From positions 1-64,000 of the IMG/VR virus record IMGVR_UViG_3300035670_000112: a DNA stretch of 64,000 nt; one strand, written 5' to 3'. Source of the stretch: a virus. The notes under the pieces were generated by a model. The model made no database searches, was not told the origin of the DNA, and saw nothing but the letters and a program-made list of their open reading frames with translations. Below, piece after piece: positions 5,497 to 37,940 of this stretch (its first letter is position 1; the number at the start of each line of letters is the position of its first letter). A program made the position numbers and the translations under genes.

Positions 5497-6014
5497 CCCG
5501 TCTTTCCTTGTGTACGACACATGTACGATGTGTACTACACTGATAGACAGGCAGTTGAGGATACGCAGGTGTGCTTTATATGTATGTTTGACGTGCATAA
5601 AAACCCACACCCTGCGTATACCTCATCTTTACATCACCAGTATACACACCTCATGTATACTTTAATATATGGACCTTTCCACACACACCAAGTGAACAGG
5701 TGTACCGTTGTTCACACCACAATATGTCTCCGACCATGAGAACATTTGTCATCATCAACGGGGTTGTCACCCTTGTTGAGTACATCATCAACGCTAACGC
5801 ATAGTTAGTGTACAGTATTTTGGTCGGTCGCACTCCTCTTCGGAGGGTGTGACCTTCTTTAAATCCTCTGAACCAATGAAGAGGTGAAGGCATTCACATT
5901 GTCTTCAAGATCTTATGGGAAGAGATGAGTAAGTGATAGACTCTCTTCCCTATGTTAATGCACCATTCTCACGTGGATATGAAGACTTCTGAGAGACAAC
6001 CAGCTCAAGAGAGA

Positions 6015-6207
6015 CTGCACTCAACTCAGATGTGAAACCACCTGATTAATAAAGTGAACTCTATGTGGTAAGCAGAGTTTAATGCAGCCTTGGTCTAATT
6101 GCCAAAATGCAGCTTATTAGTAGGACGCTGAAACATGCACAATAACTATTAATTGGAAGGGAATACTTAAATAGCATCAGAAACAGAGCTATTACAACTG
6201 AGTGCAG
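6015..6207 (+). ncRNA. Candidate multi-stem structured RNA
   Basis: Perfect 9-bp closing stem CTGCACTCA (6015-6023)/TGAGTGCAG (6199-6207), with internal stems TCAG/CTGA, AACTCT/AGAGTT and ATAGC/GCTAT; no ORF. Confidence 0.4.
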
Positions 6208-6279
6208 AGGGATTATCGGATTGAAGGTTAAGCAATAGACCTATGAACTTATTGCATCATTCATAATATCAATAGTACA

Positions 6280-6504
6280 ATGAGATACTACATCTTTGAT
6301 TTTCTGTTCATCTGTTCAATGCCACTTGTGCTTCTTGTATCGGTATGGACATTCTGTCTGTTCCAATTCGATATACTGTGGGTGACATCATCATCCCCGT
6401 ACATCATGATACAGGCACTTTTCACATTGTTCGCACCTTTCGTAATGTTCTCAGCTTCCTGCCCTGAACATACGATCATTTACAGGGCTCTTCACGATAA
6501 ATAG
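6280..6504 (+). CDS. Small membrane protein
   Basis: 74-aa ORF with two hydrophobic segments. Confidence 0.5.
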   Translation: MRYYIFDFLFICSMPLVLLVSVWTFCLFQFDILWVTSSSPYIMIQALFTLFAPFVMFSASCPEHTIIYRALHDK

Positions 6505-6954
6505 GATCGTTCCCTATTGACCACATCTGGAGAGCAGTGCTGCATGTGCACACCATGCATCATATATTTCAATGTGTGCCGTCACCACTGACGGAAGTAG
6601 ACCATTCAGCAATACTGCAAGAGGAACGGGCTTGCATATGAACCCGATGACATCATAAGTGAGGTCATCAGGGCTATATCCATAGGGGAGTGGTACCCTA
6701 TGGATGAATTTTTTTTTACCAGTAATCACGTGATCACTAACCTTTTAATACATTTGTAATGTGGAGATTTCATCAGACGATCCAGATCATCCCTACAATA
6801 TCTATTGTAGTGGAGGAGAGTACACCTTATATCATCGTGTTCTTTCCTATTTTCGGAGCATTGGAATATCGGTTCTTGTAAGCATCGCACTCATACAGCA
6901 CATCATCAATATCATGATGTTGCTGTATTGGCATGTGGTATAATGCCCTTCTTC

Positions 6955-6985
6955 ACATCCCAGGTCCTAAAAAGACCTGGGATGT
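6955..6985. repeat. Perfect 12-bp inverted repeat (hairpin)
   Basis: ACATCCCAGGTC-CTAAAAA-GACCTGGGATGT. Confidence 0.8.
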
Positions 6986-7741
6986 TTCCAATCAAGTGGC
7001 AACACATTGGTTGAAAGAGTAAAGCAACAAGTTGTACAGATAGTAACAATCAGATGCTGCAGCATCCAACCACACAGGAGAGTGTAAACTATAATGATAT
7101 GTACAAAGAAAGAAAGACAATTTGTTGAAATTCACCTGAGAACAATAGACGGTCATCCACTAAAGGTGTGTCCCTGAAGTTGACGATCTTCTTCAAACCC
7201 CTGATGATAGTTCTAGCCAAAGAGCGTTGTCTGTTGTTCTGTGTGGAGCAACTGTGGCACTAACGGGTAGTTAGGTCAAGAATGTACCGTTCGATTCGGT
7301 TGTTGTGATGAAGCATCCAGAGATGGCAATCTGGCAGGTGATAATTTATTGAGAGAGTTACAACAGGTGAAGGTTGTATTTACAGAGTAAGAGTCCTGAC
7401 AGCGATGCTTAGGATGCTATCAGCAATAAATGCCTTTGTAATGAAGGAGTTGAATAGTTGACATGCTGCTCTGATCTCTCATCTTATTGTTCCCGTCCAA
7501 TTGCAGGCTTGGTTAGTTCCCAAGAGACTGTCAATGCTTAATAGTTGCAGGACACAGCATTCAAGGTGCAACCTTGCGGGAACATATTCTATTGAGAGAG
7601 TGGACACACACGTGTATCAGCTAATGACCATAATGACCACATTAAGAGAATGTGGGTGGAAGACACGAAGCTCTCTCATCTTATTGAAACCGTTCTGATT
7701 CATTACAGACATTGGAGTGGACAGAATGGTTTCTTTTTTAC

Positions 7742-7884
7742 AGTCAGGTGGCGGAATGGCAGACGCAGAAGTTAGAAGAGAGAGATTATCAATGTTGGTT
7801 AGTGGATTGATTACCTTATCTAATGGATTAAATAACTTACACCAACTATTATAGGTTATACAGGTTCGAATCCTGTCCTGATTA
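7742..7884 (+). ncRNA. tRNA-like element (Leu-type D arm and T arm) with a ~93-nt insert replacing the anticodon/variable arms
   Basis: Acceptor stem AGTCAGG/CCTGATT, then TGGCGGAATGGCAGACGC (D arm) and T arm ACAGG-TTCGAAT-CCTGT; no normal anticodon arm and no encoded CCA. Confidence 0.65.
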
Positions 7885-7973
7885 CAGTGAGGTTGCAGAA
7901 AGGTAAGACGTGGCACATTCGGCCACGGATCGTTATGGATCAATTGAGCAGAAGTAAAGTTTAAAACCCATTT

Positions 7974-8183
7974 GTGATGAGATCAGAAGAAGAAATTAAG
8001 GCTCGATTACTTGAGCTGTTTTTAGCCCGTGAAAAATTTGAACGCTTAACTACGGAAGCAGATAATGGATGCCCTAACAAAAAGATGTTATGGTTGGCCA
8101 AACAAACTGGCGTTGGTGTTTATAGCGGTCAAATTGACCTACTTAAATGGGTTTTAAACGATTCTGCGCCCGAAGGCAATTGA
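7974..8183 (+). CDS. Cassette 1 hypothetical protein
   Basis: 69-aa ORF whose stop abuts attC-like site 1. Confidence 0.65.
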   Translation: MMRSEEEIKARLLELFLAREKFERLTTEADNGCPNKKMLWLAKQTGVGVYSGQIDLLKWVLNDSAPEGN

Positions 8184-8266
8184 TCCCAACGGTTGGCGGC
8201 TTTGTGTCAGGCTGCGAAGCGTTGGCATTGAGCGGTCGGGCAGCTTGCACAAAACCGCTGTTATAG
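8184..8266 (+). repeat. attC-like site 1
   Basis: TCCCAAC-G-GTTG-GCGGCTTTGTGTCAGGCTGC ... GCAGCTTGCACAAAACCGC-T-GTTATAG. Confidence 0.75.
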
Positions 8267-8302: not shown

Positions 8303-8500
8303 ATGGGAGGGTTAGCAAGAATTTGTAAAATGTATGGCTCAATGGAAGTGAGTGATGCAAATGGTAAAAAAGTAACTTGGCTTTGGGATTATGTAAATGA
8401 CAAACCAAGACTAAAAACAGAAATGACCAAAGAAGAAATAATGGCAAGTGAAAAAGCCAAGTGGATGGCTGTGAAATCTCAATTAGATGCAGAAAAGTAG
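8303..8500 (+). CDS. Cassette 2 hypothetical protein
   Basis: 65-aa ORF with an AT-rich leader; stop just before site 2. Confidence 0.7.
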   Translation: MGGLARICKMYGSMEVSDANGKKVTWLWDYVNDKPRLKTEMTKEEIMASEKAKWMAVKSQLDAEK

Positions 8501-8506
8501 CATTGC

Positions 8507-8637
8507 GCACAACGGTCGGGCATAAGAGAAGTGCCGAAATTAGAAGTACAAATTATGAATTTAAAACGAAAGTAAATATGAAACACAGAACATCAATTTT
8601 AGTAGGAACTCGGCATTTCTTTTATGCCTTGTTAGCG
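8507..8637 (+). repeat. attC-like site 2
   Basis: GCACAAC-GGTC-GGGCATAAGAGAAGTGCCGA ... TCGGCATTTCTTTTATGCCT-T-GTTAGCG. Confidence 0.8.
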
Positions 8638-8886
8638 GTTGTTATTTTATCAGGTTGCGGAAAATCGGTCAATGAAAAAAACTTTGATATAAGTATGCAA
8701 AAAATAAATGGCGAATGGATACGTGCAACATATTCGCTACCAGAAGACGCATATTTTTTCATTGACACTCACAGAGGTAGTTATTCATTACGATACGATA
8801 GAAGTGGTGCTAATTGGTTCACAAAATCAAGAAGTGGAATTACTGTTAGAAACGGAATTATTGATTATCGGATTAATAACCGCTAA
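8578..8886 (+). CDS. Cassette 3 putative lipoprotein
   Basis: MKHRTSILVGTRHFFYALLAVVILSGC has a lipobox (LSGC). The ATG lies in the loop of site 2 and the TAA lies inside CGCTAAC of site 3. Confidence 0.65.
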   Translation: MKHRTSILVGTRHFFYALLAVVILSGCGKSVNEKNFDISMQKINGEWIRATYSLPEDAYFFIDTHRGSYSLRYDRSGANWFTKSRSGITVRNGIIDYRINNR

Positions 8887-9013
8887 CGTGTCGGTGCTAT
8901 ACGATGTGGCGGATTTTCAGCACGAAAGTCCAATACGAAGCACCACAGTTGAATTAAGTAAAAATGTTTAACCGAAGCACGTCAGCCGCCATATTGTATA
9001 GCACATGTTAGCG
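8881..9013 (+). repeat. attC-like site 3
   Basis: CGCTAAC-GTGTCG-GTGCTATACGATGTGGCGG ... CCGCCATATTGTATAGCAC-AT-GTTAGCG. Confidence 0.82.
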
Positions 9014-9039
9014 GTTCGGGCTTCACAAATCAAAATAAA

Positions 9040-9270
9040 ATGACAATAGAATTTAACTTTTACAAAAGCTGGTATGCAGGATTTCGCTTCAAAGATTTGT
9101 TGCCAATATTCAGCTTCACCAAAAATGTTCAGGGCTGGTCATACACTCGTGTATGGTCATTGAATTGGTTTACTTGTGCAGTTTCGTTTCGCCTAATAAA
9201 AAGAAGCGATTTGAACGAAGATAGAAGCGTTTCTCATGAGAAGCATGTCAAACGATATATGGTGTCATAG
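9040..9270 (+). CDS. Cassette 4 hypothetical protein
   Basis: 76-aa aromatic-rich ORF between sites 3 and 4. Confidence 0.65.
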   Translation: MTIEFNFYKSWYAGFRFKDLLPIFSFTKNVQGWSYTRVWSLNWFTCAVSFRLIKRSDLNEDRSVSHEKHVKRYMVS

Positions 9271-9276
9271 CCTGAC

Positions 9277-9406
9277 CGGTAACGTAAAATGTATGAGCAG
9301 TAGCCGATTTCAAAGCACTGACTTATCTTTACGCTAAAATATTAATTAGAAGCAATAGCTTAAATAAGCCCACTGACACGGCTATTGCTTATAAATAGTG
9401 TTATGT
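9277..9406 (+). repeat. attC-like site 4
   Basis: CGGTAAC-GTAAA-ATGTATGAGCAGTAGCCG ... CGGCTATTGCTTATAAAT-AGT-GTTATGT. Confidence 0.78.
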
Positions 9407-9418
9407 GGCGTTATTATT

Positions 9419-9640
9419 ATGAAAATACATTGGATGAATAAAAAGTTGTATATAACAACAGCAAAACCCATTAAAGAAAATGACTTGTATTTAGACGATT
9501 TGGTACACCCAAGTTTAATACAGTATCCATTAGTAATGTGGGGTTTTGCGGATGGAGATAAACGAAAGGTAATACAAAGCCATAGTGGAACAACAAGCCC
9601 CGTAAGTTGTAGTAGAAGAATATTGTTAGTGATTGGCTAA
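9419..9640 (+). CDS. Cassette 5 hypothetical protein
   Basis: MKIHWMNKKLYIT...; stop just before site 5. Confidence 0.6.
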   Translation: MKIHWMNKKLYITTAKPIKENDLYLDDLVHPSLIQYPLVMWGFADGDKRKVIQSHSGTTSPVSCSRRILLVIG

Positions 9641-9644
9641 TGCC

Positions 9645-9778
9645 ACATAACGTGCCGCAGCTTGACGCTGTTGGCGATTTAAACTACTAAACTTTAATTA
9701 AAAAACAAATACTTAATATGAGTACAAAAGATAAATTGAAAAACGAAGCCGCCAATAGCGTTCAAGGTGCTGTTAGCA
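9645..9778 (+). repeat. attC-like site 5
   Basis: ACATAAC-G-TGCC-GCAGCTTGACGCTGTTGGCG ... CGCCAATAGCGTTCAAGGTGC-T-GTTAGCA. Confidence 0.8.
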
Positions 9779-10137
9779 GCAGTGCTTTGCGTTACAATGG
9801 AGGTAAATTGCGTTGGTCGCTTGTTGACTTTGATGCCTTAGAAGATATGGTTAAAGTGCTTGAATTTGGGGCTAAAAAGTATGCAGACAATAACTGGAAG
9901 AAAGGGCTTAAAACACCCGAAATATTTGAAAGTATGATGCGTCACATGACAGCATACATAAGGGGTGAAGATATAGACCCTGAAAGTGGATTACCACACA
10001 CAGGGCATATACTTTGCAATGCAATGTTCTTATCATATATGCAGCGTTTTAAGCCCGATTTTGATACAAGGCACAAAGACAAAAACAAGCGATGCTGTGG
10101 TAATTGGGATGAAAATGGTGTGTGTACGTGTCCGTAG
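9718..10137 (+). CDS. Cassette 6 dATP/dGTP diphosphohydrolase-like protein (DUF5664 family)
   Basis: RYNGGKLRWSLV...VLEFGAKKYADNNWKKG...MRH...GEDIDPESGLPHTGHILCNAMFL matches the family signature. Confidence 0.8.
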   Translation: MSTKDKLKNEAANSVQGAVSSSALRYNGGKLRWSLVDFDALEDMVKVLEFGAKKYADNNWKKGLKTPEIFESMMRHMTAYIRGEDIDPESGLPHTGHILCNAMFLSYMQRFKPDFDTRHKDKNKRCCGNWDENGVCTCP

Positions 10138-10143
10138 CATTGC

Positions 10144-10271
10144 TGCTAACGGTCGAGTGTATGAACCGTTGCGTGATTGAAACAATAAACTTAAAAATAC
10201 AGATATGTTTAATAGAAAAAAGAAACTTGGCAGACGCACTATAAAGCAATGGTTTATACACATTGTTAGGC
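10144..10271 (+). repeat. attC-like site 6
   Basis: TGCTAAC-GGTCGA-GTGTATGAACCGTTGC ... GCAATGGTTTATACAC-ATT-GTTAGGC. Confidence 0.8.
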
Positions 10272-10441
10272 GTTTGTTGCGGAAAGAATACTGCAAGGTT
10301 TGTGGACAAGAACTGACTGAAATTAGAGGTCGATACCCTAAAGAACCAAGAAGGAAAGTATGTGCTTGTTGTGCTACTGAAAAACTTGAATGGATAAATG
10401 AACAGAATAATGTTGAGGCGAAATGTAGCAATAACGCCTAA
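10205..10441 (+). CDS. Cassette 7 zinc-ribbon protein
   Basis: CKVC...CACC. The start is in the loop of site 6 and the stop is in GCCTAAC of site 7. Confidence 0.65.
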   Translation: MFNRKKKLGRRTIKQWFIHIVRRLLRKEYCKVCGQELTEIRGRYPKEPRRKVCACCATEKLEWINEQNNVEAKCSNNA

Positions 10442-10567
10442 CGTATCGGTGCTTGGCGAAGGCTGGGCATTAATAGTACAAAACTTTAAATTTAAAACAA
10501 ATGATTGTAGATAGCACAAACGTTGATTTAGCACAGAAGCCCAGCTTTTGCCAAACACCTGTTATAA
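10436..10567 (+). repeat. attC-like site 7
   Basis: GCCTAAC-G-TATC-GGTGCTTGGCGAAGGCTGGGC ... GCCCAGCTTTTGCCAAACACC-T-GTTATAA. Confidence 0.82.
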
Positions 10568-10815
10568 GCCGTTTTTCTATTCCTGAAACATTGGAATTGA
10601 TTAAGGAGCAAACAGGTTTAAAGTTGGAATTATGCGACTATTTCACAGGCATAAAAGAACATAACGAAAGAAAGTATTTCAATGTGATTTTGCCACAAAG
10701 AACGAGCGAATCAAAAGAGTATGGCATCTTAAAAAGGTTTGCTGATAAATACAAATTAATTTCAGTTGATCCAAATGGATTGAAGCGAGTGGCTGTCTTT
10801 CAAAATGGCTTATAA
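10501..10815 (+). CDS. Cassette 8 hypothetical protein
   Basis: 104-aa ORF starting in the loop of site 7; stop inside TTATAAC of the terminal half site. Confidence 0.65.
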   Translation: MIVDSTNVDLAQKPSFCQTPVISRFSIPETLELIKEQTGLKLELCDYFTGIKEHNERKYFNVILPQRTSESKEYGILKRFADKYKLISVDPNGLKRVAVFQNGL

Positions 10816-10816
10816 C
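10802..10816 (+). repeat. Terminal half site (left arm only)
   Basis: AAAATGGCTTATAAC complements GTTATAAGCCGTTTT at 10561, but no inner stem follows. Confidence 0.65.
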
Positions 10817-10846
10817 ATCTGATATGTACATAAAGACTAAAGCAAA

Positions 10847-12900: not shown

Positions 12901-13073
12901 TCGTATGAGATCAATGGAGGATGCCGAAAATCCATAAAGAGTAGGCGATCAATATAAAACGACAGTATCATGGATGATGAATCGTATTACAGTGAAGAGG
13001 ATCACATTGAAGACCTGAACAATGAGATCCGAGAGGAGATAATTCAGGAATTGTTCAACGATAATGACGACAT

Positions 13074-18918: not shown

Positions 18919-19692
18919 ATGGTAGGGATATACAAAATAACAAGTCCTAATGGACGTGTTTATATAGGGCAGAGTAAGAATCTTGAAGAAAGATTAAGAT
19001 ATTACTCTCTAAAAAGTTCTATAAATCAGGTGAAACTGCACAGATCTTTTAAAAAATATGGAATAAAATCCCATAAATTTGAGATAATTGAGCAGTGCTT
19101 GAAGGAAGAACTGAACAACAGGGAAAGGTATTGGCAAGAATATTATGAAGTATTGACCAAGGGACTTAACTGTCAATTAACAACTTCTGAAAATGCTCCC
19201 CATGAGATGTCTGAGGAATACAAAGAAGCCATAAGTACTACTTTAAAAAGAAAGTATGCAGAAGGAAAAATTGTAAATCCAAGGAAAAATTGCGGAAAAA
19301 TGTTGGATATGTATGATTCTTATGGGAATATTCTCAAAAGAGGATTGTATGTAGAAGAAGCAGTTGATTATTTGAATGTTTCAAATAGATCTGTAATAAA
19401 TAATGGGATCCGTATCGGAAACATTCATATTACAAATAATGATCAGATTGTAATACCTCATAATAAAAATCTTGTTAATACAATGGTTAAGTATGTTACT
19501 GTACATAAAAAAGGAAGAGTACCTCTATATCAAATATTTGAAAATGGAGATATAATCCGATGTTCAGGAGCTTCTAAACATAAAGTTGTTCAAAAAGTGC
19601 TTAATTCCAAAGATCTTATGTATTATAGTAAGAAAAATAATTCTTACTATACTTTTATAGGATTGCTAAATAATTGCCCCTTTATGCAGTAA
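18919..19692 (+). CDS. GIY-YIG homing endonuclease
   Basis: MVGIYKITSPNGRVYIGQS...R...LNNRERYWQ...GLN. Confidence 0.92.
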   Translation: MVGIYKITSPNGRVYIGQSKNLEERLRYYSLKSSINQVKLHRSFKKYGIKSHKFEIIEQCLKEELNNRERYWQEYYEVLTKGLNCQLTTSENAPHEMSEEYKEAISTTLKRKYAEGKIVNPRKNCGKMLDMYDSYGNILKRGLYVEEAVDYLNVSNRSVINNGIRIGNIHITNNDQIVIPHNKNLVNTMVKYVTVHKKGRVPLYQIFENGDIIRCSGASKHKVVQKVLNSKDLMYYSKKNNSYYTFIGLLNNCPFMQ

Positions 19693-19995
19693 TGTTTAAA
19701 AGGTAATTCCGTGAATTGCTGGAAAGCTAAGTAGAATACATTACAATAGCAGAGATCTCCAATTGAGGATGCCATTCTGTGAGCAATGTATTTTATATGC
19801 CGATCAGCAGCCAAGGTTCTCAGAAATGAGTTCAAGGTTCAACGACTAACACATGGAGTCTAAACAGGTAATGCTGTAGACGGTAAAGTGACACGAGCGC
19901 GGAACATCCTATTCGCAATAGGATGATGATATAGTCTGAGCTTATGGGAAACCATAAGAACCAAGAGATAAAAAGCTTTTGGGATAACACAACTG

Positions 19996-36355: not shown

Positions 36356-37128
36356 AAAAAAAAATGATAATATCGATTAGCGGAAAAGCAGGTTCTGGAA
36401 AGGACACTGTAGGAAAGATCATTCAGCATTTGACATCTGAGTGGGCGGAAGATGAATATAAGGATTCCGACATGCTTGCTTTTAGAAGCGATTGGCAGAT
36501 CAAAAAGTACTCTGACAAACTCAAGGACATAGTGTGTATTCTTATAGGATGTACCAGAGAGCAATTGGAAGATCAAGAGTTCAAAGAAACTCCATTGGGA
36601 GAAGAATGGACAAAATGGGGAATATTACGTCCCAACGGATCCAGAGTTATTGATATGCAGGCCACTTACGAAGAGGCTTTTGCAAGAAAGGAGAATGTCT
36701 GGCAGGATGGTTCCACAATAGAGGAAGTTAAGTTGACTCCAAGAATGGTCCTTCAGTATCTGGGAACTGACTTTGCAAGGAATGTGCTTCATCCTGATGC
36801 TTGGGTGAATGCCTTGTATTCTGAATACAGCCCGTTGTTTTACGAAAAAGATTCAGAAGGAAGAATTGAGATAGTTGAGGAAAAATGGATCATCACAGAT
36901 TCAAGATTTCCCAATGATGTCAAACGTACCCGTGAAATGGGAGGTATTCTTATAAGAGTGAACAGATCTGAATGTGAAGGTCGCAAGAATGAACACATTT
37001 CAGAAACAGCTTTGGATGATTTTGATGAATGGGATTATGTCATTGAGAACAACGGAACCATTGAAGAATTGATAGAACAGGTAAGAACGATCCTTGAAGA
37101 AGAAGGAATCATAAAAGAGAAAGAATGA
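36352..37128 (+). CDS. Deoxynucleoside monophosphate kinase (T4 gp1-like)
   Basis: ISGKAGSGKDT, TPRMVLQYLGT, IITDSRFPND, HISETALD. Confidence 0.85.
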   Translation: MKKKMIISISGKAGSGKDTVGKIIQHLTSEWAEDEYKDSDMLAFRSDWQIKKYSDKLKDIVCILIGCTREQLEDQEFKETPLGEEWTKWGILRPNGSRVIDMQATYEEAFARKENVWQDGSTIEEVKLTPRMVLQYLGTDFARNVLHPDAWVNALYSEYSPLFYEKDSEGRIEIVEEKWIITDSRFPNDVKRTREMGGILIRVNRSECEGRKNEHISETALDDFDEWDYVIENNGTIEELIEQVRTILEEEGIIKEKE

Positions 37129-37559
37129 AAATAGATTGGAATGAGATACTTGGACCTATTAAGATAGCTGAGTTGACATATGGAAAGGATGCATCAAGAT
37201 TCAATGGTCTGAACATCATCATCAAGGAGATAAATGACGTATCTGACAGATGGTTGGATTTCATCAAAGAGAACTGTATCCCAAAAAATGCAGTCTCTGA
37301 CAGAGGGAGTAAGGATATACTTGATGCACTTAACTGTGTAATGACCGATATCGAAATGCTCAGGGACAATAAATGGCAACCTGATGAGGAGTCATGCAGA
37401 TGTACACTTGAGAATCTTGAACTGATAAGGGATCATATCATGACACATGGGTCATATACTGACAATGAAAAGGTCATGTTTGAACGTAAAAGCAGTCCCT
37501 TAAAGGAAGGGGATATGAGTTATCCAGAATTGACAAAGCCTGAAGATGTCGAAAGTTAG
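37125..37559 (+). CDS. Hypothetical protein
   Basis: 144 aa. Confidence 0.65.
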   Translation: MKIDWNEILGPIKIAELTYGKDASRFNGLNIIIKEINDVSDRWLDFIKENCIPKNAVSDRGSKDILDALNCVMTDIEMLRDNKWQPDEESCRCTLENLELIRDHIMTHGSYTDNEKVMFERKSSPLKEGDMSYPELTKPEDVES

Positions 37560-37568
37560 GGGTATCTT

Positions 37569-37666
37569 TGGTAACGTTTTGCAGCTAACATAAGTGGCTG
37601 CTTGTAAGAACTTCTGAATTAAAAACAAATGCTTGTAGCAGCCATTTTTGTTAGGTGCTGTTATAA
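37569..37666 (+). repeat. attC-like site 9 (second locus)
   Basis: TGGTAAC-G-TTTT-GCAGCTAACATAAGTGGCTGCT ... AGCAGCCATTTTTGTTAGGTGC-T-GTTATAA. Confidence 0.8.
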
Positions 37667-37684
37667 GTTGTAAAAATTACGGTA

Positions 37685-37876
37685 ATGGAAAACGAAACAA
37701 AAAAATTAACACAAAAAGAATTAGAAGCAAGAGCATTAATTGCAGGTGATTTGCTACGAGAAGGTGAAGTAACAAGAGTTGAAACGTTCAGAGTTGAAAT
37801 TGATGCTGCTCTTGGTGAAAATACTGGCGATTTGAAGTTTGAAAAGAACACAGACTTTGAAGATGGTACGATGTAG
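37685..37876 (+). CDS. Cassette protein (second locus)
   Basis: 63-aa ORF between sites 9 and 10. Confidence 0.65.
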   Translation: MENETKKLTQKELEARALIAGDLLREGEVTRVETFRVEIDAALGENTGDLKFEKNTDFEDGTM

Positions 37877-37889
37877 TAATTTTTATTGC

Positions 37890-37940
37890 TTATAACGATT
37901 TGCTAAACAACGTTTCAATGTTGTTTAGGTACTGTTAAAC
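37890..37940 (+). repeat. Short attC-like site 10
   Basis: TTATAAC-GATTTG-CTAAACAAC ... GTTGTTTAG-GTACT-GTTAAAC. Confidence 0.65.

What the first reader, a model, noticed from the sequence alone, without database searches (positions are those of the whole stretch)
8578..10567. Recombination-site loops donate start codons and N-termini to the downstream cassette
Seen: ORFs at 8578, 9718, 10205 and 10501 start at an ATG inside the AT-rich loop of the preceding site and read through the right arm and the GTT. In three of four, GTT is an in-frame Val (offsets 54, 60 and 60 nt). In cassette 3 the lipoprotein signal peptide (…FFYAL|LAVVILSGC) spans the junction. Inference: whether a cassette is translated, and what N-terminus or localisation it gets, depends on its upstream neighbour, so shuffling would act as a translational switch or fusion generator.
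Basis: partly seen in the sequence, partly recalled or inferred. Interest (0 to 1): 0.72.

Follow-up and report, generated by a model that had tools for sequence, protein, structure and literature searches.

The report
Phage cassette genes starting inside hairpins
In this phage, four small swappable genes begin at a start codon inside the folded integron-like hairpin in front of them. That hairpin belongs to the gene it heads, not to the neighbour upstream, so it acts as recombination site, translation start and first ~20 amino acids at once.

Summary
ORFs 8578, 9718, 10205 and 10501 start at ATGs in the 70-73-nt AT-rich loops of attC-like hairpins and read through the 3' arm and the GTT. The offsets are 53, 54, 60 and 60 nt.

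The loop ATGs look like real starts:
- Their sequence context scores like this phage's true starts.
- In related copies, conservation rises sharply at the ATG.
- Homologue similarity begins at the GTT-encoded residue in all four proteins.
- The same hairpin leader heads unrelated bodies in frame. One is a 300-400-aa C5 DNA methylase with no other upstream in-frame ATG. Several are lipoproteins.

The hairpin travels with the gene on its right:
- Left flanks diverge immediately at AAC, while right flanks stay conserved.
- The coding strand folds better in 7 of 7 sites.
- The array ends at a bare AAC.

So these are reverse-polarity integron-like cassettes (hairpin + gene). Ordinary shuffling keeps each gene's start codon, and leader swaps at GTT are rarer events. 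No integrase was found on this contig.

Integrase-less attC clusters (CALINs) in phages and the ORF-11 leader of attI1 are published. I found no paper describing this layout. This scan has already noted the same layout on other phage DNA.

The parts
7909..7934 (+). Candidate minimal hairpin A0 (6-bp stem 7909-7914 / 7922-7927) followed by GTT at 7932. Possible head of the array. Weak: it has no clean AAC on its left.
   Evidence: Read from the sequence. Cassette 1's ends (from 7932, and ending at AAC 8188-8190) are complementary with one indel.
7974..8183 (+). Cassette 1 ORF (69 aa), with its own start downstream of the GTT.
   Evidence: No Pfam or PHROG match.
8188..8262 (+). Hairpin A1, short form (75 nt), no ATG in the loop.
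8303..8500 (+). Cassette 2 ORF (65 aa), own ATG with a very strong start context (score 7.3).
8511..8633 (+). Hairpin A2: AAC, a 5-nt bulge, stem 8519-8537 / 8610-8628 and a 72-nt loop holding ATG 8578. It encodes the n-region and half of the h-region of a lipoprotein signal peptide.
   Evidence: + strand -18.8, - strand -14.9 kcal/mol. The same hairpin heads other bodies in L026 and L095 and in P0021-24, P0028 and P0032.
8578..8886 (+). Cassette 3 ORF (102 aa), a lipoprotein. It starts in the A2 loop, the lipobox Cys is residue 27, and the stop TAA lies inside its own R'' box.
8885..9009 (+). Hairpin A3. The loop ATG 8964 opens a 15-codon uORF that stops at the TAG of GTTAG. A conserved leader runs on to ATG 9040. 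It belongs to a ~125-nt repeat family found on 51 viral contigs.
9040..9270 (+). Cassette 4 ORF (76 aa), own ATG 33 nt after the GTT.
9281..9402 (+). Hairpin A4, the weakest fold, no loop ATG. The hairpin plus leader up to the ATG recurs in L012 in front of a different ORF.
9419..9640 (+). Cassette 5 ORF (73 aa from ATG 9419).
9649..9774 (+). Hairpin A5, with loop ATG 9718 and GTT 9772 as in-frame Val19.
9718..10137 (+). Cassette 6 ORF (139 aa), dATP/dGTP diphosphohydrolase N-terminal domain at residues 22-118. It starts in the A5 loop.
10148..10267 (+). Hairpin A6, with loop ATG 10205 and GTT 10265 as in-frame Val21.
10205..10441 (+). Cassette 7 ORF (78 aa), a Cys4 zinc-ribbon-like protein. 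It starts in the A6 loop and its stop TAA lies inside R''.
10440..10563 (+). Hairpin A7: stem 10448-10468 / 10539-10559, a 70-nt loop, ATG 10501, and GTT 10561 as in-frame Val21.
10501..10815 (+). Cassette 8 ORF (104 aa), starting in the A7 loop. It ends in R'' (AAC 10814-10816) with no hairpin behind it, which marks the right end of the array.
37573..37940 (+). Second locus: hairpin A9 (37573-37662, loop ATG 37629 opening a 14-codon uORF), a one-gene cassette (ORF 37685-37876) and a minimal 51-nt site A10 (about 37886-37940).

Best explanation
The region 7.9-10.8 kb is an integrase-less array of eight integron-like gene cassettes in a large phage, probably of a Bacteroidota host. Its polarity is the reverse of the textbook one.

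Structure of each unit (shown): each mobile unit is [C-bulge-stem-loop-stem-GTT..gene..AA]. The attC-like hairpin sits at the 5' end of its own gene, on the coding strand. The gene is bracketed by its own inverted repeat (R' just after the hairpin, R'' at its 3' end).

Role of the hairpin in translation: the hairpin doubles as the gene's translation-initiation region. A 19-21-bp stem closes a 70-73-nt A-rich loop, which holds an ATG about 30-40 nt from either arm. In four cassettes this ATG is the gene's only plausible start, so the loop and the 3' arm encode the first 18-20 residues, including half of a lipoprotein signal peptide. In two others the loop ATG opens a short uORF ending just before or at the gene's own leader.

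Recombination (inferred): recombination of the folded coding strand at AA|C, left of the hairpin, moves the hairpin, start codon, leader and gene together. Rarer exchanges at the GTT have re-paired leaders and bodies in frame over evolutionary time. Which recombinase acts, and whether the stem also tunes translation in the mRNA, is not shown.
For: Site anatomy:
- AAC/GTT are invariant and the stems are imperfect. Strong sites occur only at the two loci in 87 kb.
- Each gene's 5' end after the GTT is complementary to the R'' at its own 3' end: 13, 10, 13, 13 and 11 of 14, and 13 of 14 for cassette 8 by hand with AAC set correctly at 10814-10816. Across the hairpin the mean is 6.7 of 14, the same as unrelated pairs (6.8).

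Real starts:
- Loop ATGs score 4.3, 6.6, 1.5 and 3.9 on a start-context matrix built from 76 long ORFs of this genome (true starts average 2.3, internal ATGs -2.3). The in-cassette TTG alternatives for cassettes 3 and 7 score -3.3 to -4.1; TTG 10591 in cassette 8 scores 1.1.
- In 5 distinct A6-type copies, 18 of 30 loop columns upstream of the ATG vary, against 1 of 33 in the unpaired loop after it. For A7-type the figures are 12 of 30 against 8 of 33.
- The A7-type leader, with the same ATG at offset 60, heads C5 DNA methylases of 305-402 aa where complete, on 11 viral contigs. In the two scanned, PF00145 begins at residue 28, 7 residues after the junction.
- Cassette-8 bodies sit behind at least 5 different hairpins at DNA level, each with an in-frame ATG, and behind more than 10 different N-termini at protein level. 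Free-standing homologues start with Met at query residue 26.
- The Pfam domain of ORF 9718 starts at residue 22, and most of 150 representative matches start at residues 19-24.
- Lipoprotein bodies keep LAVVILSGC behind different MK-rich leaders. The A2 leader heads at least 6 other bodies.

Ownership and polarity:
- For A3-type sites (34 non-redundant), identity is 0.38 left of AAC, 0.87 in the hairpin and 0.70 right of GTT. The unit's own R'' lies 225-535 nt downstream in most.
- The A6 hairpin is always with the cassette-7 body while its left flanks differ.
- The window and L004 share similarity over 10448-10817 only.
- Cassette 8 is followed by A3-, A4- or A6-like hairpins, or by none.
- The + strand is more stable in 7 of 7 sites, with about 15 G:T pairs against about 2 on the - strand. 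This is the published mark of the recombinogenic bottom strand (PMC5027507).
- The array ends at a bare AAC.
Against: - There is no direct evidence of translation or transcription; no usable RNA data were found.
- No integron integrase or any tyrosine recombinase is on this contig, which is 86% complete. None was found on 4 of 5 large carrier contigs; the fifth has a tyrosine recombinase that is not an IntI. Integron-type recombination is therefore inferred from site anatomy only.
- The unpaired bulge lies on the 5' arm of the coding strand. Canonical extrahelical bases lie on the 3' arm of the bottom strand, so one structural criterion points the other way or does not apply.
- Breakpoints also occur at the GTT. 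Both sides of the hairpin have therefore been crossover points, and their relative rates are only roughly estimated.
- One cassette-8 copy (L005) has no in-frame ATG upstream.
- The protein N-termini from the databases are gene-caller predictions.
Confidence: 0.72

Rival explanations
1. One reading: these are canonical-polarity cassettes (gene + 3' attC). The loop, start codon and N-terminus belong to the upstream neighbour, so each reshuffling changes whether and how the next cassette is translated.
For: The same body is found behind different hairpin leaders, and the same leader in front of different bodies, with the break at the GTT. The 4-6-nt bulge would lie on the 3' arm of the - strand, where canonical extrahelical bases lie (for the rule; for the folds).
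Against: Hairpins are linked to their right flank, not their left. Cassette 8 has no constant hairpin behind it, and the array ends without one. The coding strand carries the G:T pairs and the lower folding energy. Leader type matches body type: signal-like leaders precede lipoproteins and hydrophilic leaders precede cytosolic proteins. Random neighbour donation would not produce that match.
Confidence: 0.1
2. The loop ATGs are not used. Translation starts downstream of the GTT at TTG or other codons (8629, 9787, 10274/10277, 10591), and the in-frame extensions are by-products of AT-rich loops.
For: Each of the four cassettes has an in-frame TTG within 0-10 codons of the GTT. The within-window frame coincidence is only p about 0.1. 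L005 carries cassette 8 with no upstream ATG. TTG 10591 has a middling context score of 1.1.
Against: The TTG contexts for cassettes 3 and 7 score like non-starts. A 9-residue signal peptide from TTG 8629 would lack an n-region. The conservation step falls at the loop ATG. In-frame ATGs recur in at least 5 independent hairpins before cassette 8, and before a methylase whose catalytic domain begins 7 residues after the junction.
Confidence: 0.07
3. The hairpins are mainly RNA-level or regulatory stem-loops, comparable to the promoter/terminator PeSL motifs of T4-type phages. The mosaicism would come from general or illegitimate recombination at short conserved motifs, not from an integron-type single-strand site-specific reaction.
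For: The structure is favoured on the sense (mRNA) strand. The hairpin families are highly conserved and include a leader and start codon. No recombinase was found. PeSL-mediated modular shuffling is documented in phages (PMC2839356, PMC4122927).
Against: Invariant AAC/GTT boxes, gene-specific R'/R'' inverted repeats bracketing every gene and breakpoints falling within a few bases of AAC and GTT are the signature of attC-type recombination. An RNA structure would not need them. Hairpin bodies of neighbouring cassettes are unrelated, so homologous recombination between them is unlikely.
Confidence: 0.12

Closest known systems
Integron gene cassettes and attC sites, including integrase-less clusters (CALINs) in virulent phages (Qi et al. 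2023, PMC9892861)
   Same: AAC...GTT boxes and an imperfect hairpin with an unpaired spacer. Each cassette has its own complementary R'/R'' ends. One strand is favoured by G:T pairs. The genes form a tandem array of small unrelated genes with no integrase nearby, carried in a phage.
   Different: The gene lies on the favoured (bottom-type) strand, so the hairpin is 5' of its gene rather than 3'. The loop is long (70-73 nt) and holds a start codon. The bulge is on the 5' arm. No IntI was found, and I could not run the attC covariance models.
ORF-11 / ORF-18 leader of the class 1 attI1 site, and in-frame cassette fusions such as aacA4 or gcuF1-blaOXA-28 (review PMC8876359)
   Same: A short ORF with its own initiation region inside a recombination site feeds translation of the next cassette, either by coupling or by in-frame fusion. 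Such a fusion can alter a signal peptide.
   Different: Those cases involve one site (attI) or rare accidents. Here the start codon is built into the attC-like hairpin of many cassettes. It is conserved as families and is normally inherited with the gene.
Homogeneous ~120-130-nt attC repeats of sedentary chromosomal integrons (e.g. Vibrio VCRs). The repeat length and homogeneity are from my own knowledge; VCR2 at 133 bp is in PMC5027507.
   Same: Long (~125-nt) hairpin repeats are highly conserved between unrelated cassettes. The A3-type shows 0.87 identity over 34 non-redundant sites.
   Different: Several distinct repeat families are mixed within one array. They are spread over many phage contigs rather than one bacterial chromosome, and the conserved unit extends into the gene's leader and start codon.
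PeSL promoter-stem-loop motifs of T4-type phages (PMC2839356, PMC4122927)
   Same: Structured intergenic motifs flank small novel phage genes and mark the boundaries of shuffled modules.
   Different: PeSLs are similar to one another and recombine by homology. Here the hairpin bodies differ, only AAC/GTT are shared, and each gene has its own inverted-repeat ends. No promoter was tested here.

Membership tests
Integron cassette array / CALIN | Conserved 5'-AAC and GTT-3' triplets in inverted R'' and R' boxes at the ends of each site | tested here: met
   All eight larger sites (A1-A7 and A9) begin with AAC and end with GTT.
Integron cassette array / CALIN | Imperfect hairpin with an L box, an unpaired central spacer and a variable terminal loop | tested here: met
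   19-21-bp stems with a 4-6-nt bulge after AAC and 0-3 nt before GTT. Loops are 70-73 nt in A2 and A5-A7, and shorter in A1, A9 and A10.
Integron cassette array / CALIN | Extrahelical bases near L'' on the 3' arm of the recombinogenic strand | tested here: inconclusive
   Only A5 shows a clear single extra base, on the 3' arm of the + strand (read). The main asymmetry is a 5'-arm bulge, unlike the canonical layout described in PMC5027507.
Integron cassette array / CALIN | The cassette's own two ends are complementary, so the circular form rebuilds one attC | tested here: met
   10-13 of 14 matches for cassettes 3-7 (13 of 14 for cassette 8 by hand), against 6.7 across the hairpin. The same holds for 34 A3-type units.
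Integron cassette array / CALIN | One strand is favoured by G:T mispairs and a lower folding energy (the bottom strand) | tested here: met
   The + strand is favoured in 7 of 7 sites, with about 15 G:T pairs against about 2. Here, however, the favoured strand is the coding strand.
Integron cassette array / CALIN | The gene is on the top strand with its attC at its 3' end | tested here: not met
   The hairpin is linked to the gene on its right, on the same strand. The array ends without a hairpin.
Integron cassette array / CALIN | Recognised by the attC covariance models (IntegronFinder, HattCI) | not testable with these tools
   The models are not available here. Rfam has no match in the region.
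Complete integron | An integron integrase (IntI, TIGR02249) and an attI site next to the array | tested here: not met
   There is no TIGR02249 or PF00589 match in the 87-kb contig. Four of five large carrier contigs have none, and the fifth has a non-IntI tyrosine recombinase.
ORF-11-type leader of a recombination site | A short ORF with its own initiation region inside the site, coupled or fused to the next gene | tested here: met
   There are four in-frame fusions and two short uORFs (A3, A9) ending at or shortly before the gene's leader. The start contexts are good. Function was not tested.
ORF-11-type leader of a recombination site | Located in attI of the integron platform | tested here: not met
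   It is located in the attC-like hairpins of individual cassettes.
PeSL regulatory cassettes of T4-type phages | An early promoter joined to a terminator-like stem-loop, with motifs similar enough to recombine by homology | tested here: not met
   Hairpin bodies of neighbouring cassettes are unrelated (mean column identity 59% with only 11 invariant columns). No promoter was tested.

The most novel reading that the evidence does not exclude
A widespread, phage-borne cassette system distinct from bacterial integrons. Its recombination hairpin sits on the coding strand at the head of each gene and is also the gene's translation-initiation module and leader peptide. The cassettes would be moved by a recombinase that is not an integron integrase and is still unidentified. 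Occasional exchange at the GTT would build new proteins, for example by attaching a ready-made half signal peptide or leader to a new body.
Probability: 0.35. Interest if true: 0.85.

Novelty: new variant of a known kind. Interest (0 to 1): 0.7.

Why it matters
Integron cassettes are taught as promoterless genes followed by their attC site, with expression depending on position. Here the site precedes the gene on the coding strand and carries the start codon and leader, so each cassette brings its own translation signal wherever it lands. That would suit hosts whose ribosomes ignore Shine-Dalgarno sequences and rely on unstructured A-rich starts (PMC6847099).

It also shows a natural way in which one DNA element serves as recombination site, RNA structure and coding sequence at the same time. 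And it shows how leaders, including part of a lipoprotein signal peptide, get re-used on unrelated proteins.

Practically, gene callers and integron finders will mis-set the starts and cassette boundaries in such phages. The hairpin families are abundant on viral contigs (51 contigs for one type), so the effect on phage annotation is not small.

Tried and rejected
I used viral-contig pattern scans instead.
I stopped that step and used the match-start columns only.
- The search for related loci with the flanking gene 37125-37559 found no relatives. The second locus could therefore not be compared with an empty site.
- The A5-type arm pattern gave no viral-contig hit.
- The genome contigs and viral-contig scans with the cassette-8 family gave only free-standing homologues.
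- Rfam has no family for the hairpins.
- Sequencing runs: only assembled contigs were available, so there is no evidence on transcripts, 5' ends or expression. Short contig pieces from lake and wastewater runs match the hairpins alone (for example 10448-10564 and 8511-8648), at far higher summed depth than the gene bodies. I treat this only as a hint that the hairpin families are widespread. Regions without cover carry no weight.
- Purine content does not separate hairpins from gene bodies (0.56 against 0.58), so I dropped that strand criterion.
- In one search the candidate TTG in cassette 6 was mis-indexed (9790 instead of 9787) and is not counted.
- In one search the last AAC was mis-set (10812 instead of 10814). 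The corrected comparison for cassette 8 is 13 of 14, done by hand.
- I could not fix the crossover more precisely than within about 3 nt of AAC and GTT. Between the window and L004 the bulge also differs.
- Searches for matching ends around the second locus were uninformative.
Full report
**Context.** The window is the first 64 kb of an 87-kb IMG/VR virus record, estimated 86% complete. It has giant virion-type ORFs, a group I intron and densely packed small genes. Its only DNA matches among isolated phages are short stretches of Cellulophaga phages and one Pseudomonas phage. The start contexts of its long genes are A/T-rich with no Shine-Dalgarno signal. A Bacteroidota host is therefore likely, but this is inferred.

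**Observation.** The four ORFs are as described.
- ATG 8578, 9718, 10205 and 10501 each lie in the loop of an AAC...GTT hairpin: A2 8511-8633, A5 9649-9774, A6 10148-10267 and A7 10440-10563.
- Each reads through the 3' arm and the GTT into a long frame.
- The offsets to the G of GTT are 53, 54, 60 and 60 nt. GTT is an in-frame Val in three ORFs. In the lipoprotein ORF the junction falls between two Leu codons (...FFYAL|LAVVILSGC).
- Each ATG lies 32-41 nt after the 5' arm and 29-38 nt before the 3' arm of a 70-73-nt loop (arms).
- Inside this window alone the frame match is not compelling. Six hairpins have one loop-ATG frame open to the GTT, and four of these coincide with the downstream gene (p about 0.1, my calculation).

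**The sites.**
- A scan of the whole genome for AAC-bulge-stem-loop-stem-GTT finds strong sites only in this array and at 37573-37662. Shuffled sequence gives 0-3 weak hits.
- Folding z-scores on the + strand run from -1.3 to -4.9.
- Every gene is bracketed by its own inverted repeat. The bases after the GTT are complementary to the R'' box ending in AAC at that gene's own 3' end: 13, 10, 13, 13 and 11 of 14 for cassettes 3-7, and 13 of 14 for cassette 8 after a coordinate correction made by hand.
- Complementarity across a hairpin is at background level (6.7 against 6.8). This is the anatomy of integron cassettes.
- No integron integrase or other tyrosine recombinase is on the contig.
- Clusters of attC sites without an integrase are already documented in virulent phages (PMC9892861).

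**Are the loop ATGs real starts?** Five lines of evidence agree.
1. *Start context.* On a matrix trained on 76 long ORFs of this genome, the loop ATGs score 4.3, 6.6, 1.5 and 3.9. True starts average 2.3 and internal ATGs -2.3. The alternative TTGs at 8629 and 10274/10277 score -3.3 to -4.1, and TTG 10591 scores 1.1.
2. *A conservation step at the ATG.* Among five distinct A6-type hairpins from other viral contigs, 18 of 30 loop columns upstream of the ATG vary. Only 1 of 33 varies in the unpaired loop after it, at a third codon position. For eight A7-type copies the figures are 12 of 30 against 8 of 33. These columns are ungapped, so indels inflate the upstream figure; the indels themselves show there is no frame constraint upstream.
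   - The cassette-8 family shares VISRFSI... from the GTT codon onward. It sits behind more than ten unrelated N-termini. Free-standing relatives begin with Met at query residue 26.
   - At DNA level, copies behind at least five different hairpins all have an in-frame ATG 51-60 nt before the GTT. One copy (L005) has none.
   - The lipoprotein body keeps LAVVILSGC behind several different MK-rich leaders.
   - For ORF 10205, most relatives keep the same leader, and six break at or within a few residues of Val21.
   - For ORF 9718, the Pfam domain begins at residue 22, and most of 150 representative matches begin at residues 19-24.
4. *One leader heads unrelated bodies in frame.* The A7-type hairpin, with the same ATG at offset 60, heads C5 cytosine methylases of 305-402 aa where complete, on 11 viral contigs. 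In the two scanned, the PF00145 domain starts at residue 28, 7 residues after the junction. There is no other upstream in-frame ATG.
5. *The A2 leader is reused.* The A2-type leader (n-region plus half of the h-region) heads at least six other bodies, most with a lipobox.

The data point the other way.
- One arm pattern of the A3-type hairpin hits 51 viral contigs. Among 34 non-redundant sites, pairwise identity is 0.38 in the 20 nt left of AAC, 0.87 in the hairpin and 0.70 in the 20 nt right of GTT.
- In those sites conservation runs on for about 35-40 nt to the downstream gene's ATG. The R'' complementary to each unit's R' lies 225-535 nt downstream in most.
- The A6-type hairpin is followed by the cassette-7 body in all six contigs, while the left flanks differ.
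- The window and L004 share 10448-10817 (hairpin A7 plus cassette 8) but not the upstream cassette.
- Copies of cassette 8 all end at the AAC. They are followed by A3-like, A4-like or A6-like hairpins, or by unrelated sequence.
- The array itself ends at a bare AAC (10814-10816).
- The + strand folds better in 7 of 7 sites and holds about 15 G:T pairs against about 2. More G:T mispairs and a lower folding energy are the published marks of the recombinogenic bottom strand, which is cleaved between A and C of its 5' AAC (PMC5027507).
- Together these results give a unit of the form C-hairpin-GTT..gene..AA. It is an integron-type cassette with the gene written on the bottom strand.

**Leader swapping.** Breaks at the GTT are nevertheless real. 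The cassette-8 body sits behind many leaders. The A7 leader heads both cassette 8 and methylases, and the A2 leader heads several exported proteins. Left flanks differ even between copies about 90% identical, whereas right flanks fall into a few types. I therefore read exchange at the GTT as the rarer event; the rates are only rough. Leader type matches body type: signal-like leaders precede lipoproteins and hydrophilic leaders precede cytosolic proteins. This argues for co-inheritance or selection rather than random neighbour donation.

**Mechanism, with status of each step.**
- *Shown:* the anatomy, the linkage, the strand bias, and start-like context and conservation beginning at the loop ATG.
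- *Inferred:* translation begins in the loop. The long A-rich loop presents the start codon in unpaired RNA, which suits Bacteroidota ribosomes that ignore Shine-Dalgarno sequences and are tuned by mRNA structure and upstream bases (PMC6847099). Cassettes move by folded single-strand recombination at AA|C.
- *Unknown:* the recombinase. Four of five large carrier contigs, two of them rated 100% complete, have no tyrosine recombinase. The fifth has one that is not an IntI.

**Comparison with known systems.**
- The closest are integron cassettes and CALINs, with which this shares anatomy but not polarity.
- Next is the ORF-11 leader of attI1 and the rare in-frame cassette fusions (PMC8876359).
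- The homogeneous attC repeats of chromosomal integrons and the PeSL motifs of T4-type phages are further comparators.
- Three literature searches found no description of start codons built into attC loops or of reverse-polarity phage cassettes.
- This scan's own notebook holds several earlier notes of the same layout in other phage genomes. I treated them as leads. My polarity and linkage tests were run independently, and they agree.

**Caveats.**
- Database N-termini are gene-caller calls.
- Pattern scans required exact arm matches.
- There is no expression evidence.
- One structural criterion (the arm carrying the bulge) does not fit the canonical bottom strand.

Noticed in passing
window 8884-8886, 10439-10441, 10813-10815: In cassettes 3, 7 and 8 the stop codon TAA lies inside the gene's own R'' box (..TAAC). 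The recombination box therefore supplies the stop as well.
   Followed up: partly
window 8964-9011 and 37629-37673: Hairpins A3 and A9 hold loop ATGs that open short uORFs of 15 and 14 codons. These end at the TAG of GTTAG, or 12 nt before the gene's own ATG, which resembles ORF-11-type coupling. The A3 uORF is kept in nearly all of 51 related sites.
   Followed up: partly
L027-L077 (51 viral contigs): The A3-type hairpin is a ~125-nt repeat family about 87% identical across many phage contigs. It has a conserved ~35-nt leader running to the downstream start codon.
   Followed up: yes
L078-L088: The A7-type hairpin leader heads C5 cytosine DNA methylases on 11 viral contigs. In L085 the 5' arm and AAC are replaced while the leader and gene remain, which looks like a decayed site that survives as a plain 5' end.
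   Followed up: partly
window 7959-7973 / 8145-8159: A perfect 15-nt inverted repeat is nested inside cassette 1 and brackets its ORF. It may be a cassette within a cassette or a remnant of a second pair of ends.
   Followed up: no
window 7742-7884: A tRNA-like element scores 32 bits in Rfam, but ARAGORN calls nothing. It has a long insert between the D and T arms and sits just upstream of the array.
   Followed up: no
window about 5500-7700: About 2 kb shows no long ORF on either strand, directly upstream of the tRNA-like element.
   Followed up: no
window 19655-19958 and 12914-12947: Rfam gathering-level matches to a group I intron (94.5 bits) and to the DUF805b RNA motif (42.3 bits).
   Followed up: no
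L096 (G003:C1:22671-26207): One 73-kb carrier contig encodes a 432-aa tyrosine recombinase that does not match the integron-integrase model. The other four large carriers examined have none.
   Followed up: partly
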